Positions 13,165 through 17,707 of a DNA stretch of 64,000 bases are shown one piece after another. The DNA is from an uncultured Gammaproteobacteria bacterium (GTDB taxonomy: Bacteria; Patescibacteriota; Microgenomatia; UBA1406; HO2-37-13b): NCBI GenBank assembly GCA_964413645.1, contig CAYPSA010000005.1, positions 2,820 to 66,819 of the forward strand. The letters run 5' to 3'. The notes below the pieces were generated by a model. The model was not told the origin of the DNA. It did not search any database and saw only the letters and a list, made by a program, of their open reading frames with translations. Each line of letters starts with the position of its first letter. Position 1 is the stretch's first letter. The translations under genes were made by a program, and so were the position numbers.

Positions 13165-16100
13165 CTAATTAATTATCCACCAATTAAATGTGGCGGCGGT
13201 TTTTATTGGGCTATCAATGGTAACAACGAAATAACTCCTACATGCTTGATCAGTTTCAGTTATCTGAACATCACAAGTTTTTTTCTCAGAAACATATACT
13301 GGCTGATTTTCTGTTTTAGATGTGGAAGTTAAGTACACAAGTGAATTTTTAGATAGCTTTTCGTTATATATAATAATGTTGCTTTTGCCGACAGGGATCT
13401 CTCCTGTTCCGGCAGATTGCGCGTTCGTAGAAATTGCCGCAGTTAAACTGGACTTGTTTTGAACGTCTCCGCTATCGGCTATGAATGTATTTACACCAAT
13501 TCCCCCTTCAAAGAATGCTGAACCCGAAGCATTAATAGAAGCAACCTCACGCGCCTCGTCATTTAAAATCTGCAGGCTTGCAGATTGCGAGGCATCCTCA
13601 CTTAAGCTCACTTTAAGGTTATCTCCTTTATTAATTGGTGAAAGGTGATTTGTACGAACTCCTTTTTGAGCGATTACTTCCCCTTTTGTTGTTAATGTTC
13701 CATCTCGAGCAATCATAACAGCTCCATCGAGTAAATTTATGGAAGCAAGCGCTGTTAGTTTAAGTTCAAAAGCAAGGCCAGTAATGGTGTCATCGCGTAT
13801 AGATACGCTCCCAGCCAAAAGAGAATTAGCCACAGAAGCGTCGTAAAAGCTCGCTTTGTTTAAGACAGTAATTTCGTCTATTGGATCTATAGAATTAAAT
13901 ACGGACGTATCTTTATCGTACAGTCGCGCATCGGGAAGTGGGGCGTTTTTTAACTCGTTCACCATTTTTTCAATATCGGTAATATTACTTGCTTCTATGC
14001 GGTTTGCCACAAGCGTGCCCGAAACACTCGCTTGTTGTGTGGTAAGTGTTGAGCTCGTAAGTACTTGTGTATTAACGTTTTGTGCCTCCACGCTTTGAGT
14101 CTCGACATTTTGTGCTTGTAATGTACCTGAAAGCGTCGCATTTCCTAACGCATCAAAAGAGGCGACGGTTTGATTATTAAAACCTTGAATAATCAGCTGT
14201 GCTAACGGGCCAGAGCTTGATATGTTGGTTGATGCTGAAGAACTTGATTCACTCTCTTCAGGAGCTAGGTCGATAACGAGGTCGCTTTTAGGTGCGGGGA
14301 GTATGGTTTTTGAAACAAGCGTACCCGTCTCAACGACAGGTGACGAAATTTTTTCTTCTACTTGAATTGTTTTAGCTATCAGATTGGAAAAGCGAGATAT
14401 TAGTTCTCTTAAACTCTCTCTGTTGGTACCTAGAACAGTTCTATCGTACGCGAGCTGGTTTTTTTGAGTGACCTCATAGTATCCCGGCTGAATAGTCGCT
14501 CGAATCGTTTTGGTGCCTGTTCCATTGTAGGCTTCTTGTGCAAATCCCACAATTCTCATATTTTGGGTCGCACGAGCTACTTCTCCGGGAATGGTGGAGT
14601 ACGATAGAGGGTCACCTGAAGTAATTGTGCCTGAAGCGGAAGAAACTTTCACTGGTAATTGTCCAACTAAACCAACGAGCGTGTATTTTTCATCATCTTC
14701 CCCTTTGCTGTTTCCCACAAACGCAGCATTATTTGAAACGACCCCTAGGACATTAGTATATGTTGTATCGCATGGTCGAACCATACCATCGGCAACCAAG
14801 CATATAAGTGTGCCTGCATTCCAAAGAGATGTACTTTTTGAATCTAAACTCGAATCTTTCAGAAAATACTCAGCAAAGTCTCCTCCTCCAGAAGTGAAAC
14901 TAACGCCACTCGCACCGTTACTTTGGATTTTTCCTTGAACTTCGTCATTTCCCTTAGTAAACGTAATAAATTCATTACTTGTGTTACCTCCACCGGTAAA
15001 TCCTAATTTAATAAGCAATCCCTTACTGCTGGCGTCGCTATTGGTATTCTCAACCTTGAGTGTAGATATATTTGCTTGGGAATCGACAACGGTTAATTTG
15101 TTTGTCGGTGCAATCGTTCCCAACCCAATACGATTGTTTTTTGTATCCATGCTTAATAGGTCGGTTTGAAAGGCGAGTGCATTTACTGTATTACCTGGAA
15201 GAGCTATCCCCGATGCATTTGCAAACGATAGGGTAGAGGCGTTGAAATTTACTTTCTGGCTTCCAGAGGCCCCAAGTGTTAGGTCGCCTCCAATTCGCGT
15301 CGTGCCCGCAACATCCAAATTAAAGGTGGGATTTGTTGTGCCAATACCAAAGTTGCCCGCATTTATCCAGCTCTTATCACTCGTATATGGAGAAAGTCTA
15401 ATCCGTGCCAGGCTTGCTACAGACGAACCAAGGATAAATTCATCTCCTGCATTGGTTGTGGAAAGTGTATTTCCTTCGCGTTTTAAGTATCCTGAAATAC
15501 CAGATAAACCCGGGTAAATATTTTCTACATACAGTGCATTGAACCTATTATTGCTCGAACCTAGGTCTTGAATGCCGGTATTAGTAGGAATAATATTCCC
15601 CGTAATTGCTAATTCTCCACCAGCTTTAATTGTGCTTACTTGTTCACCTCCTACAAGGAATTTAATTTGTCCTGATTCTGTGGCTGAAAGGGTAACGTCT
15701 CCATCTAAACTGCTCTGCAGAAGTACTCCGCGAGCGCTGGTTATGGCAAAATTTGCCGATTCAAGTGTAGAACGGATTGCGGCAGTTTCTGTAGACAATA
15801 CAATTTCACCCTCGTCATTTACTGCTAAGTTACCAGTGGGAGCGTCGCTGCTGGTCGCGTTTCGCGAAGATATTGGCGTGCGAGGTTGCATTTCGGTATC
15901 ATTTCCGATTTTAATACCTAAATAAAGCTGGGGATTAGTAGTAAATACGTCTTCTCGAATAGGGCTTCCACAAGCCCCGCCAATCGTCGTTTGAAAAGCG
16001 CCTTGCATATTTGGAGTTACGGTACAAACTCCACTTGAATATACCTGTTTTCCTCCTAATGCATCGTTATATAACGATAAAACAACTTTTGTTTTGTTGG

Positions 16101-16479
16101 CAATAATAAAACCACTAGCATCGGTAAGTTTTCCCGAGAAAGAAAGAGTGCGTGTATTGGGTTTATATGCGGCACTAAATCCAATGGTTGATGGGGTTTG
16201 TTGCGTCCTTGCAATTGCGCCTCCAATAATCAGTAATAATACAAGACTTCCACCGACAAGTGCGTAAAGTGCACCCTTATGCTGTATGGTAGAACGTGGC
16301 GCCACTTTAAAGCCTGAACTTTGAGGAGTTAGTGTTGTTGAATTTTCTTCAGTAGATTGCTTTTTCTTCATCCACCCGGTAAAGCTATTCGCTAAAAGCA
16401 CTCGTCGCTCAACCTCATCAGGAGTCAAGCCCTGGCTTTCAAGCTTCAGTCGATATTGATTAATACTAGGTACGCTCAT
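13165..16479 (-). CDS. 1,104-aa membrane-anchored fibre/adhesin-like protein, paralog of the giant protein
   Basis: Short cytoplasmic N-terminus, then a TM helix (ALYALVGGSLVLLLIIGGAI). Has the G[IL]GTxxPxxxL.V motifs (FGIGTTNPTFNLDVAGTTRIGGDL; IGLGTIAPTNKLTVV). The middle region (FAEYF...VLGVVS...GQLPVKV...GDPL) and the C-terminal ~130 aa ending FNWWIIN parallel the giant ORF's end (FDWFIVN). Confidence 0.8.
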   Translation of the reverse strand: MSVPSINQYRLKLESQGLTPDEVERRVLLANSFTGWMKKKQSTEENSTTLTPQSSGFKVAPRSTIQHKGALYALVGGSLVLLLIIGGAIARTQQTPSTIGFSAAYKPNTRTLSFSGKLTDASGFIIANKTKVVLSLYNDALGGKQVYSSGVCTVTPNMQGAFQTTIGGACGSPIREDVFTTNPQLYLGIKIGNDTEMQPRTPISSRNATSSDAPTGNLAVNDEGEIVLSTETAAIRSTLESANFAITSARGVLLQSSLDGDVTLSATESGQIKFLVGGEQVSTIKAGGELAITGNIIPTNTGIQDLGSSNNRFNALYVENIYPGLSGISGYLKREGNTLSTTNAGDEFILGSSVASLARIRLSPYTSDKSWINAGNFGIGTTNPTFNLDVAGTTRIGGDLTLGASGSQKVNFNASTLSFANASGIALPGNTVNALAFQTDLLSMDTKNNRIGLGTIAPTNKLTVVDSQANISTLKVENTNSDASSKGLLIKLGFTGGGNTSNEFITFTKGNDEVQGKIQSNGASGVSFTSGGGDFAEYFLKDSSLDSKSTSLWNAGTLICLVADGMVRPCDTTYTNVLGVVSNNAAFVGNSKGEDDEKYTLVGLVGQLPVKVSSASGTITSGDPLSYSTIPGEVARATQNMRIVGFAQEAYNGTGTKTIRATIQPGYYEVTQKNQLAYDRTVLGTNRESLRELISRFSNLIAKTIQVEEKISSPVVETGTLVSKTILPAPKSDLVIDLAPEESESSSSASTNISSSGPLAQLIIQGFNNQTVASFDALGNATLSGTLQAQNVETQSVEAQNVNTQVLTSSTLTTQQASVSGTLVANRIEASNITDIEKMVNELKNAPLPDARLYDKDTSVFNSIDPIDEITVLNKASFYDASVANSLLAGSVSIRDDTITGLAFELKLTALASINLLDGAVMIARDGTLTTKGEVIAQKGVRTNHLSPINKGDNLKVSLSEDASQSASLQILNDEAREVASINASGSAFFEGGIGVNTFIADSGDVQNKSSLTAAISTNAQSAGTGEIPVGKSNIIIYNEKLSKNSLVYLTSTSKTENQPVYVSEKKTCDVQITETDQACRSYFVVTIDSPIKTAATFNWWIIN

Positions 16480-16912
16480 GTGATAGATTCATAAATTCGT
16501 TAAGAGCTAAAACATCCTCACGCGGAAGGCCATTTGAACGTGAAAATTCTTGTACAAACTTCATTTCGGGAATAGGTGATGTGATAGCTATGTTTGAAAC
16601 CAATCGGGCAGGGTTAGAAAATTGATCACCAACGCTAGTTAAAAGGTCTCCGAAGGCTCTAAGTGAAGATAGCGAACGGTTTATCGATCGAACTGGTAGT
16701 CTGCTAGATTGAAGAAATTCTTTATATAAAGTAATGCTTCTTACATTAAAATCAGGCACATTTTCATGTGCATTCATCCATGATAAGAACATTCGAAGGT
16801 CAGATACGTAATTCTTACGAGTTACTTTACTTAAATTCTTTTGAGATAAATAATTATCAAAATGGACTGTAACAGTAGGTACATTATACCGATCGACACT
16901 ATTTTTAAACAT
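16466..16912 (-). CDS. Stand-alone phage-integrase N-terminal SAM-like (core-binding) domain protein; no catalytic domain
   Basis: 148 aa. FDNYLSQKNLSKVTRKNYVSDLRMFLSWM...ITLYKEFL...SINRSLSSLRAFGDLL...NPA matches the XerC/D N-terminal helix pattern. There is no R-K-H-R-H-Y catalytic region. Overlaps the fibre gene start by 14 nt. Confidence 0.65.
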   Translation of the reverse strand: MFKNSVDRYNVPTVTVHFDNYLSQKNLSKVTRKNYVSDLRMFLSWMNAHENVPDFNVRSITLYKEFLQSSRLPVRSINRSLSSLRAFGDLLTSVGDQFSNPARLVSNIAITSPIPEMKFVQEFSRSNGLPREDVLALNEFMNLSHERT

Positions 16913-16920
16913 ACTTATTC

Positions 16921-16949
16921 ATGCTAAGGTATTATCCAGGGCTTGTCAA
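16921..16949 (-). promoter_or_regulatory. Promoter TTGACA-17-TAGCAT, 8 nt upstream of ATG 16912
   Basis: Minus strand reads TTGACAagccctggataatacctTAGCATgaataagtATG. Confidence 0.5.
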
Positions 16950-17707
16950 GAGTTAAAAATGTATAAAAAGACATATTATGATATAGTTCCCAAGGTGTGT
17001 GAAACTAACACAAAACGAGCATATATTAAGCTTTAACCGTATTTATCCGATATACCGTAGACAAAACTTATAGACGTAAATATATAGAACTAAATCATAA
17101 GGCCTATAACAAACAGTGTATATAGTGCTAATATCTAAAATGCTCTATTTGCGGGACTTGATGATCTTGGATTTGTGCCTAGCTTTTAGCACGAGGCCAT
17201 GTGAAGCCATAAATAACATCGGATACTTTAATTATTAATTCAGAGTCAATCTAAAATATTTTGCAAGATTTCGACTCATGGAGTGATTCTTATTATGAAG
17301 CATGATACATGTTTGGGCCGATGAAACAACCTAAGTTATTTCTGAGGCCTTGTGAGGTGTTTTGTGGTAATTAAGCACAACTAATCTGTTTATTTTTTGG
17401 TTTTAAGATTCTAGAAATGAAAATGTTAATTTTTTGTTGATTTCGTGAAATTTTCACTTACTCTGGATGGAACCGGAAGTGGCAGAAAATATGTATAAGT
17501 GCTAGCTTTTTTCAACATTTAAAACGGATTGTCGTAGTAGCACAAAGACAATACTTCATATAAACATGGAATTTTGGAGAGAATTTTGTTTTGATTAGGA
17601 CGTAAAATTTGCGTATTCTCAAATTTCTTATTGACAAAAAATATTGCGTCTGTTAGTCTTCTTGCATAGCAAGTAACGAACGTTGATATAAATAATATAC
17701 AATAACT

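What the first reader, a model, noticed from the sequence alone, without database searches (positions are those of the whole stretch)
16380..16912. Catalysis-less integrase core-binding (SAM-like) domain protein, with its helix motif repeated in the fibre's cytoplasmic tail
The 148-aa product has the XerC/D-type N-terminal pattern (F.NYL......S..T..NY..DL..FL.WM ... SL..LR.F...L...NPA) but stops before any catalytic domain. Its C-terminus (KFVQEFSRSNGLPREDVLALNEFMNL) and the first ~35 residues of the fibre (INQYRLKLESQGLTPDEVERRVLLANSFTGWM) both look like additional copies of the first helix pair of that domain, [FY]..[YF]L....GL.....V.......F..W/L. The fibre's copy lies on the cytoplasmic side of its TM helix. 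This suggests a repurposed domain, acting as a regulator or as a cytoplasmic docking partner of the fibre, rather than a recombinase. The similarity is weak and judged by eye.
Basis: inference. Interest (0 to 1): 0.55.

Follow-up and report, generated by a model that had tools for sequence, protein, structure and literature searches.

The report
Split integrase-like domain linking protein to fibre
A small protein resembling the DNA-binding front end of an integrase, with no enzyme part, is the detached cytoplasmic module of a giant surface fibre in an ultra-small (CPR) bacterium, and the two neighbouring genes each encode half of one protein domain, which probably joins the two proteins.

Summary
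The 148-aa ORF (16466-16912, minus strand) is a real, conserved, catalysis-less SAM-like/core-binding domain protein (Pfam PF02899, E=1.7e-10). It is not a decayed integrase.

A profile search found 455 related protein clusters. Most are stand-alone proteins of about 150 aa. In 28 long relatives the same domain is fused to the N-terminus of homologues of this window's fibre, ahead of the single membrane helix.

In 39 of 80 related genome loci (Roizmanbacteria/Microgenomates), a second SAM-like domain is split between the two genes. Helices A-B end the small protein and helices C-D start the fibre. Joined, the halves score as one complete domain in 25 of 27 clear pairs.

The window is a diverged case. 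The small protein's C-terminal hairpin is linked to A-B only through intermediate sequences.

Best reading: the small protein docks on the fibre's cytoplasmic tail by completing the split domain. That places a basic, recombinase-derived domain at the fibre's base. The architecture is shown. Docking and the domain's ligand are inferred. I found no published description.

The parts
16466..16912 (-). Gene for the 148-aa catalysis-less SAM-like (core-binding) domain protein
   Evidence: ORF. Pfam PF02899 E=1.7e-10. Ten homologues, all 142-150 aa. dN/dS 0.18-0.46.
16589..16873 (-). Domain 1: complete four-helix SAM-like domain (residues 14-108; helices 11-24, 29-48, 57-69, 74-93). Basic, pI 10.1.
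   Evidence: Family HMM 102.9 bits, positions 4-98. AF2 pLDDT 87-95. Fold matches the N-domains of XerA, Cre and lambda Int. pI.
16475..16567 (-). C-terminal helix hairpin A'B' (residues 116-146): a diverged first half of a second SAM-like domain. Acidic, pI 5.1.
   Evidence: AF2 helices 116-127 and 131-146. Collinear with helices A-B of the second domain in natural two-domain fusions, with a 7-residue deletion. Transitive hhalign link P=2e-4 then E=2e-8. Not detected directly.
16466..16479 (-). 14-nt overlap between the stop of the small gene and the start of the fibre gene, in different frames
   Evidence: Sequence. The fibre frame is closed by a TGA three codons before its ATG.
13165..16479 (-). 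Gene for the 1104-aa membrane-anchored fibre
   Evidence: ORF. Homologues at 58-100% identity always lie next to the small gene. The fused relative P0108 is 48% identical over 1020 aa.
16333..16470 (-). Fibre N-terminal helix hairpin C'D' (residues 4-49): second half of the split SAM-like domain. Basic, pI 9.8, on the cytoplasmic side.
   Evidence: HMM positions 48-93, 14.8 bits, 0 of 5000 shuffles. hhalign to relatives' fibre C-D halves 96.7%, E=3e-10. dN far below that of the adjacent linker. AF2 helices at fibre residues 6-15 and 20-47, pLDDT 85-94.
16213..16269 (-). Single transmembrane helix of the fibre (residues 71-89)
   Evidence: Hydropathy scan. Fused relatives have the same order: domain, TM, fibre.
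14707..14946 (-). Peptidase_G2 (intramolecular-chaperone, autoproteolytic) like segment in mid-fibre (residues 512-591)
   Evidence: Pfam PF11962 E=4.9e-7, 29.8 bits against a cut-off of 25. Precomputed for most homologues.
13168..13188 (-). C-terminal FNWWIIN motif shared by the fibre family
   Evidence: Last residues of the window fibre and of most long relatives.
16921..16949 (-). Promoter-like TTGACA-17-TAGCAT, 8 nt upstream of the small gene's ATG, conserved in the 7 family loci
   Evidence: Consensus scan. Invariant block in alignment A2. Consensus match only; function not shown.

Best explanation
The 148-aa protein is the detached cytoplasmic module of the fibre encoded immediately downstream. 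The family is confined, as far as seen, to Roizmanbacteria/Microgenomates-type CPR bacteria. Its fibres are anchored N-in by one TM helix and carry one to three recombinase-derived SAM-like domains on the cytoplasmic side.

These domains occur in two arrangements. Either they are fused to the fibre, or they sit on a separate small protein. In the second case the last domain is cut at the loop between helices B and C, so the small protein ends with A-B and the fibre begins with C-D.

I propose that the two hairpins reassemble non-covalently into one four-helix domain (fold complementation). This would tether the small protein's intact, basic domain 1 to the base of each fibre subunit and reproduce the fused architecture.

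In this window the split domain has diverged on both sides, with an acidic A'B' and a basic C'D'. It seems to serve only as the connector, while domain 1 keeps all family-conserved residues.

Shown: domain identity, absence of catalysis, fusion in relatives, the complementary split, and co-divergence of the halves. Inferred: physical docking. Unknown: what domain 1 binds. DNA is the default guess from its ancestry and charge; a protein partner is equally possible.
For: - Domain identity and fold.
- Conserved stand-alone gene next to the fibre in every relative found.
- Profile search: 455 clusters at E<=1e-10. Of the top 150, 102 are 131-230 aa. 28 of the 29 proteins over 700 aa are homologues of this fibre with the domain(s) N-terminal to the TM helix.
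- 73 A-B half-domain matches; 61 proteins of <=230 aa end within 8 residues of one.
- In 80 species-level loci, 39 are split with a C-D half opening the downstream long ORF, 21 are fused with one domain and 2 are fused with two.
- The A-B half ends at HMM position 37 (median) and the C-D half starts at position 42. Concatenation gives one domain spanning positions <=8 to >=85 in 25 of 27 pairs, median 60 bits, maximum 105.
- The halves co-diverge: Spearman 0.58, p=1e-4. Domain 1 correlates with neither half (0.09 and 0.04).
- Window-specific: fibre N-terminus p~1e-6 with shuffle and tile controls. It is orthologous to relatives' C-D halves at E=3e-10.
- The window concatenation is collinear with natural two-domain fusions.
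- AF2 of the concatenation gives four confident helices, pLDDT 85-94.
- The hairpins have opposite charges.
- The fibre hairpin has much lower dN than the neighbouring linker.
- Independent genes (23S_rRNA_IVP, a LamG-like giant protein) lie between the halves in some relatives, so the halves are made as two polypeptides.
Against: - No direct test of binding was possible. The AF2 run used an artificial single chain, and I could not inspect contacts, so packing of A'B' against C'D' is not demonstrated.
- In this window's lineage the A'B' half is not recognisable by HMM (scores ~0). It is 7 residues shorter than canonical.
- hhalign alone cannot tell whether the fibre hairpin is C-D (E=4.5e-7) or A-B (E=5.6e-7).
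- The closest fused relative, P0108, has no second domain at all. The connector is therefore dispensable when the link is covalent.
- In 18 of 57 non-fused loci no C-D half was found at default thresholds.
- The co-divergence statistic is not corrected for phylogeny.
- The function of domain 1 is untested.
Confidence: 0.6

Rival explanations
1. Signalling or regulator reading. Domain 1 is a sequence-specific DNA-binding module. The fibre's tail sequesters the small protein at the membrane and releases it when the fibre is engaged, cleaved or not yet assembled. In fused relatives the domain would act as a ToxR-like membrane-tethered regulator. The pair would then be an outside-in signalling device controlling transcription, for example of its own operon.
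For: - Ancestry from a DNA-binding domain.
- Domain 1 is basic, pI 10.1. Across relatives the median pI is 9.6, and 94% are above 8.
- The family-conserved KNY.SD.R and INR.LS.LR motifs are retained in domain 1.
- Separating the module onto its own polypeptide would make release possible.
- A long conserved upstream spacer and a mid-fibre autoproteolytic-type domain are present.
Against: - No DNA site was identified. The conserved blocks of the upstream spacer are genus-specific and give no repeated motif.
- A basic charge is also expected for any membrane-proximal cytoplasmic segment.
- Permanently fused versions are common: 23 of 80 loci.
- A separate PaaX-like regulator already sits divergently upstream in 39 of 80 loci.
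Confidence: 0.2
2. Relic reading. The complementary half-domains are leftovers of a gene fission (or are about to fuse) and no longer pair. The small protein acts on its own, or each hairpin mediates homo-oligomerisation, for example bundling the three tails of a trimeric fibre.
For: - The A'B' half is degenerate in this lineage.
- Helix hairpins can self-associate.
- Single-domain fused relatives do without the second domain.
Against: - The split at the same loop is kept in at least 39 species-level loci and in dozens of 50%-identity clusters.
- Both halves stay under constraint and co-diverge.
- A useless half-domain should be lost quickly in these reduced genomes.
Confidence: 0.14
3. One polypeptide after all. 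A programmed frameshift, translational bypass or RNA splicing joins the two ORFs into a fused two-domain fibre.
For: - The ORFs overlap by 14 nt.
- The joined sequence is collinear with natural fusions.
Against: - The fibre frame is closed by a TGA three codons before its ATG, and no slippery run is evident.
- Relatives have gaps of 5 nt (L001), ~650-700 nt (L050, L059, L068, L072, L086) and 5.5 kb (L065, L071).
- In L059 and L072 the gap holds an independent gene, and in L065 a 1783-aa gene.
- No intein or Hint match in either terminus.
Confidence: 0.03
4. A decayed integrase: the ORF is the N-terminal stump of a former XerC/D-type recombinase gene.
For: Database sources label relatives 'site-specific recombinase XerD' or 'integrase, partial'.
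Against: - Length is conserved at 142-150 aa over 50-100% identity, with dN/dS below 0.5.
- The fibre gene starts inside the ORF's last codons.
- The other two downstream frames carry 22 and 32 stops in 400 codons.
- No PF00589 match anywhere.
- True recombinases score clearly lower than family members: E>=1e-18 against <=1e-22.
Confidence: 0.02

Closest known systems
N-terminal core-binding (SAM-like) domain of XerC/XerD-type tyrosine recombinases (Pfam PF02899 Phage_int_SAM_1)
   Same: Four-helix fold and sequence motifs. Pfam score is above the gathering threshold. Structural matches to the N-domains of XerA, Cre, IntI and lambda Int.
   Different: - No catalytic domain is attached here or in any relative of the family.
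- The domain occurs in tandem (one to three copies), attached to or docked on a membrane-anchored extracellular fibre.
- The last copy is split between two genes.
- DNA binding is untested.
Membrane-tethered proteins with a cytoplasmic DNA-binding-type domain ahead of a single TM helix: ToxR/CadC-type regulators, and RodZ, whose HTH binds MreB rather than DNA (from general knowledge)
   Same: Topology in the fused relatives: an N-terminal cytoplasmic domain of DNA-binding ancestry, one TM helix, then a large extracytoplasmic part.
   Different: - Different fold: not winged-helix or HTH.
- The outer part is a ~1000-2000-aa fibre, not a sensor domain.
- In the window the module is a separate polypeptide.
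- There is no evidence for or against transcriptional control.
Naturally split proteins that reassemble, such as split inteins and other fragment-complementing pairs (from general knowledge)
   Same: Two adjacent genes encode complementary fragments of one fold, cut in a surface loop.
   Different: - No Hint/intein blocks, so no splicing is expected.
- The reassembled unit would be a small four-helix domain acting as a connector.
- Reassembly itself is not shown.
Phage tail fibres/tailspikes with an autoproteolytic intramolecular chaperone (Peptidase_G2, Peptidase_S74)
   Same: The fibre has a Peptidase_G2-type segment. The relative P0051 has an S74-type SDERLKHNI motif.
   Different: - The fibre is chromosomal and anchored in the cell membrane by an N-terminal TM helix.
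- The chaperone-like segment lies mid-protein, not at the C-terminus.
- No match in 50,697 phage records or in PHROGs tail families.

Membership tests
Tyrosine recombinase (XerC/XerD/integrase) | N-terminal SAM-like core-binding domain | tested here: met
   PF02899 E=1.7e-10. TIGR02224/TIGR02225 match only positions 3-113 of ~295. Fold search agrees.
Tyrosine recombinase (XerC/XerD/integrase) | C-terminal catalytic domain (PF00589) with the R-H-R-Y active site | tested here: not met
   The protein ends at residue 148. No PF00589 match in it or in the fibre. The other downstream frames are full of stops. NCBIfam scores of 43 and 41 bits are far below the cut-offs of 335 and 330. Not a member.
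Fibre-associated SAM-like domain family of Microgenomates (unnamed; defined here) | Strong match of domain 1 to the family-specific profile | tested here: met
   102.9 bits against an HMM built from relatives only. There is a score gap between family members and true recombinases.
Fibre-associated SAM-like domain family of Microgenomates (unnamed; defined here) | Fused to, or encoded directly upstream of, a TM-anchored fibre homologue ending in FNWW[IV][IV]N | tested here: met
   14-nt overlap with the fibre gene. Fibre homologues of 28 fused relatives. 56 of 80 loci carry a fibre homologue.
Fibre-associated SAM-like domain family of Microgenomates (unnamed; defined here) | C-D half of a split domain at the fibre's N-terminus | tested here: met
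   14.8 bits, p~1.5e-6, 0 of 5000 shuffles. hhalign E=3e-10 to relatives' C-D halves.
Fibre-associated SAM-like domain family of Microgenomates (unnamed; defined here) | A-B half of the split domain at the small protein's C-terminus | tested here: inconclusive
   Direct HMM scores ~0. A helix hairpin is predicted. Collinear with fusions apart from a 7-residue deletion. Transitive link P=2e-4 then E=2e-8.
ToxR/CadC-type membrane-tethered transcription regulators | OmpR-type winged-helix DNA-binding domain in the cytoplasmic part | tested here: not met
   Only SAM-like domain matches in Pfam. Resemblance is in topology only.
ToxR/CadC-type membrane-tethered transcription regulators | Sequence-specific DNA binding and promoter control | not testable with these tools
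   Needs EMSA, DAP-seq or a reporter assay.
Split intein / protein trans-splicing pair | Hint-domain N- and C-fragments flanking the split | tested here: not met
   No intein or Hint family in the small protein's C-terminus or the fibre's N-terminus at E<=10.
Programmed-frameshift fusion (IS3 OrfAB or phage G/GT type) | Overlapping open frames with a slippery site; overlap conserved in relatives | tested here: not met
   The fibre frame is closed three codons before its ATG. Relatives have spacers from 5 nt to 5.5 kb, some holding other genes.

The most novel reading that the evidence does not exclude
CPR bacteria of the Microgenomates group have turned a recombinase DNA-binding domain into the cytoplasmic end of their giant surface fibres. 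They have also evolved a natural split-domain fastener that lets this module attach to and detach from the fibre. If domain 1 still binds DNA, the pair would form a direct link between a cell-surface (host-contact) fibre and the chromosome. It would work either as a contact-sensing, membrane-sequestered transcription factor or as a DNA tether at the fibre base, near the conserved ComEA/ComEC genes.
Probability: 0.22. Interest if true: 0.85.

Novelty: new variant of a known kind. Interest (0 to 1): 0.62.

Why it matters
- Surface fibres are the likely host-attachment organs of CPR episymbionts, and almost nothing is known about how they connect to the cell interior. This family gives a defined, widespread cytoplasmic module to test: 455 clusters, and 319 loci in species-level genomes.
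- It is a clean natural example of one small domain split at a fixed loop between two genes and kept that way across many species. That is of interest for protein evolution and as a possible natural fragment-complementation tag.
- It corrects annotation. Databases call these proteins 'XerD', 'integrase, partial' or hypothetical, which inflates counts of mobile-element genes in CPR genomes.

Tried and rejected
- Pfam and NCBIfam on the isolated hairpins and on the concatenation. The generic models see only domain 1; the whole-sequence score rises by 5 bits, which is not significant.
- Direct hhalign of the window's C-terminal hairpin against A-B or C-D profiles. Not significant.
- Rfam on the whole window, and at E<=1 on the 795-bp upstream spacer. 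Nothing apart from one tRNA elsewhere in the window. RNAalifold on the spacer gave no covariation support. The repeat search gave no convincing operator, and the spacer's conserved motifs are absent outside the genus.
- PDB sequence search with the small-protein profile and with the fibre. No hits.
- PHROGs and the phage-genome tblastn for the fibre. Nothing useful.
It was replaced by an alignment of admissible two-domain proteins.
- The first search for related loci alignment was too diverse.
- Seven literature searches and one paper check found no description of this architecture.
- Decayed-integrase and frameshift readings were rejected.
Full report
WHAT IS THERE. The surrounding genes are secE, nusG, rplK, rplA, ComEA/ComEC pieces and a PaaX-like regulator. 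This gene content and the closest relatives place the window in a Roizmanbacteria-type (Microgenomates, CPR) genome.

THE SMALL PROTEIN. Pfam Phage_int_SAM_1 matches residues 18-91 (E=1.7e-10, 41.4 bits, cut-off 22.3). The XerC/XerD NCBIfam models match only their first ~110 positions and fall far below their whole-protein cut-offs. An AlphaFold model (pLDDT 78) has four helices (11-24, 29-48, 57-69, 74-93), a linker, and an extra helix hairpin (116-127, 131-146). Its best PDB matches are all N-terminal domains of tyrosine recombinases: XerA, Cre, IntI and lambda Int.

There is no catalytic domain. The protein ends at residue 148, and the fibre ORF has no PF00589 match. The two other downstream frames carry 22 and 32 stops in 400 codons. 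Ten homologues at 50-100% identity are all 142-150 aa. dN/dS against six of them is 0.18-0.46. The gene is therefore real and conserved, not a decayed integrase.

LINK TO THE FIBRE. In every contig that carries a homologue, the small gene sits directly upstream of a fibre homologue. That alone could be synteny among close relatives, so I searched with a profile of the family against 1.84 billion representative proteins. This gave 1367 hits at E<=1e-3 and 455 at E<=1e-10.

Of the best 150 hits, 102 are stand-alone proteins of 131-230 aa and 29 are longer than 700 aa. Of those 29, 28 are BLASTP homologues of this window's fibre. The closest, P0108, is 47.5% identical over 1020 residues. Most end in the same FNWW[IV][IV]N motif. 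In all 28 the SAM-like domain or domains lie at the N-terminus, and in nearly all a single hydrophobic helix follows them. This fusion pattern shows that the small protein and the fibre form one functional unit, and that the domain works on the cytoplasmic side.

THE SPLIT DOMAIN. Most stand-alone relatives give two matches to the domain profile: one full domain, plus a half-domain covering only helices A-B. The half-domain ends within 8 residues of the protein's C-terminus in 61 of the proteins of <=230 aa. Long relatives often have two full domains instead.

I fetched 80 loci from species-representative genomes. There were 319 confirmed matches, mostly titled Roizmanbacteria, Microgenomates or Patescibacteria. 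I scanned their ORFs with an HMM built only from relatives. The loci fall into these classes:
- 39 loci: the small ORF is followed by a long ORF (up to ~2000 aa) that begins with the complementary C-D half.
- 21 loci: one domain fused to the fibre.
- 2 loci: two domains fused to the fibre.
- 18 loci: no C-D half found at default thresholds. This group includes L010, the window's own family, where the signal is only ~14 bits.

The A-B half ends at HMM position 37 (median) and the C-D half starts at position 42. When the two are joined, they align as one complete domain in 25 of 27 clear pairs, with a median of 60 bits and a maximum of 105. The profile scores of the two halves are correlated across loci (Spearman 0.58, p=1e-4). 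Neither half correlates with domain 1 (0.09 and 0.04). This statistic is not corrected for phylogeny.

In some loci the halves are separated by independent genes. Examples are a 23S_rRNA_IVP gene in L072, L086 and L059, and a 1783-aa LamG-like protein in L065. The halves are therefore made as separate polypeptides.

THE WINDOW'S OWN PAIR. The fibre's first ~49 residues score 14.8 bits (p~1.5e-6) on HMM positions 48-93. None of 5000 shuffles reaches this (maximum 11.2). Among 841 tiles of all long ORFs in the 64-kb window, no other tile outside the SAM protein exceeds 9 bits. All six family members behave the same way (12-20 bits).

Half-specific HMMs favour C-D (10-18 bits) over A-B (7-10 bits). 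Profile-profile comparison alone cannot decide between them (E=4.5e-7 against 5.6e-7), because the A-B and C-D hairpins resemble each other (E=1e-11). However, the best match by far is to the N-terminal C-D halves of relatives' fibres (96.7%, E=3e-10), and those are clearly C-D type (E=2e-18 against 2e-9).

The small protein's C-terminal hairpin is not detectable directly. It is collinear with helices A-B of the second domain in natural fusions, apart from a 7-residue deletion. It also connects through a graded series of diverged C-termini: P=2e-4 to the diverged type, which matches canonical A-B at E=2e-8.

AF2 on the joined sequence, with an alignment that includes natural two-domain proteins, gives confident helices on both sides of the junction (pLDDT 85-94, junction 62). 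I could not inspect contacts. The two hairpins carry opposite net charge (-2 and +3). The fibre hairpin evolves much more slowly than the linker that follows it.

HOW IT MOST LIKELY WORKS. The conserved theme is one or more basic SAM-like domains (median pI 9.6) held at the cytoplasmic base of a TM-anchored fibre. The link is either covalent or made through a domain split at the B/C loop. I infer that the two hairpins reassemble into a four-helix unit, so that the 148-aa protein docks on each fibre subunit.

In this lineage the split domain has lost the family's KNY.SD.R and INR.LS.LR signatures, while domain 1 keeps them. This suggests the second domain is now only a connector and domain 1 is the working part. 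What domain 1 binds is unknown. Its ancestry and charge suggest DNA, but RodZ shows that such folds can be reused for protein contacts (general knowledge). Docking and ligand are inferences. The architecture, the split and the conservation are shown.

COMPARISON AND NOVELTY. The domain belongs to Pfam PF02899, but the protein is not a tyrosine recombinase because the catalytic domain is absent. The topology of the fused relatives recalls ToxR/CadC or RodZ, but the fold differs. The split recalls naturally split proteins, but there are no intein blocks. Sources annotate relatives as 'XerD', 'integrase, partial' or hypothetical. Seven literature searches and one paper check found no description of this architecture. 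I rate it a new variant of a known kind: a known domain in a new, widespread architecture with a natural split.

LIMITS. I have no interaction data and no DNA-binding data. Taxonomic breadth is known only from record titles, many of which ('uncultured Gammaproteobacteria') look wrong for this gene content. Fission and fusion events were not counted on a tree.

Noticed in passing
window 16913-17707: A 795-bp gene-free spacer lies between the PaaX-like gene and the small gene. It has the same length (786-814 bp) and several invariant blocks in six related loci. There is no Rfam match even at E<=1 and no covariation support for an RNA. The blocks are not conserved outside the genus. A TTGACA-17-TAGCAT promoter-like site lies only 8 nt before the ATG, which would give a nearly leaderless mRNA.
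   Followed up: partly
L072:6648-7028, L086:1750-2115, L059:6476-7126: Genes for 23S rRNA-intervening-sequence proteins (PF05635; E=6e-17 in L072) sit exactly between the two halves of the split domain in several relatives. This raises the question of whether such insertions caused or exploit the gene fission.
   Followed up: partly
L065:6616-11967: A 1783-aa LamG/concanavalin-like giant membrane protein is inserted between the small gene and the fibre that carries the C-D half. L071 has the same 5.5-kb spacing. One small protein may serve more than one surface protein.
   Followed up: no
window 14707-14946 (fibre residues 512-591): A Peptidase_G2 (intramolecular chaperone, autoproteolytic) type segment lies in the middle of the fibre, not at its end. 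The relative P0051 has an S74-type SDERLKHNI motif at a comparable place. The fibre may be cleaved after assembly.
   Followed up: no
window 13168-13188 and the C-termini of relatives: Nearly all fibres of the family, from ~1000 to 3620 aa, end with FNWW[IV][IV]N. This is a strongly conserved C-terminal motif of unknown role.
   Followed up: no
window 17708-18457 (+): A PaaX-like regulator (PaaX_M E=5e-21) is divergently placed upstream. It is found within 6 kb upstream in 39 of 80 related loci at 50-62% identity, far more conserved than the SAM-like protein. An ATATCAA...TTGATAT inverted repeat lies just upstream of its start.
   Followed up: partly
window 18649-20972 (+): ComEA (SLBB+HHH_3) is followed by ComEC encoded as two separate ORFs, Competence domain 19262-20080 and Lactamase_B domain 20082-20972. 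Relatives have the same arrangement.
   Followed up: no
small protein residues 8-10 and N-termini of relatives: A short (R)YN(L) motif precedes helix A. It is conserved from the window family to distant fused relatives, for example P0037, P0057, P0017 and P0108.
   Followed up: no
loci L011, L015, L017 and many others: Many genome records carrying this Microgenomates-type locus are titled 'uncultured Gammaproteobacteria' or 'Pseudomonadales'. The titles look like placeholder or wrong taxonomy.
   Followed up: no
P0046: One top-150 profile hit is a 1913-aa serine-rich repetitive protein with 12 weak matches to helices A-B. It looks like a low-complexity false positive and was excluded.
   Followed up: partly
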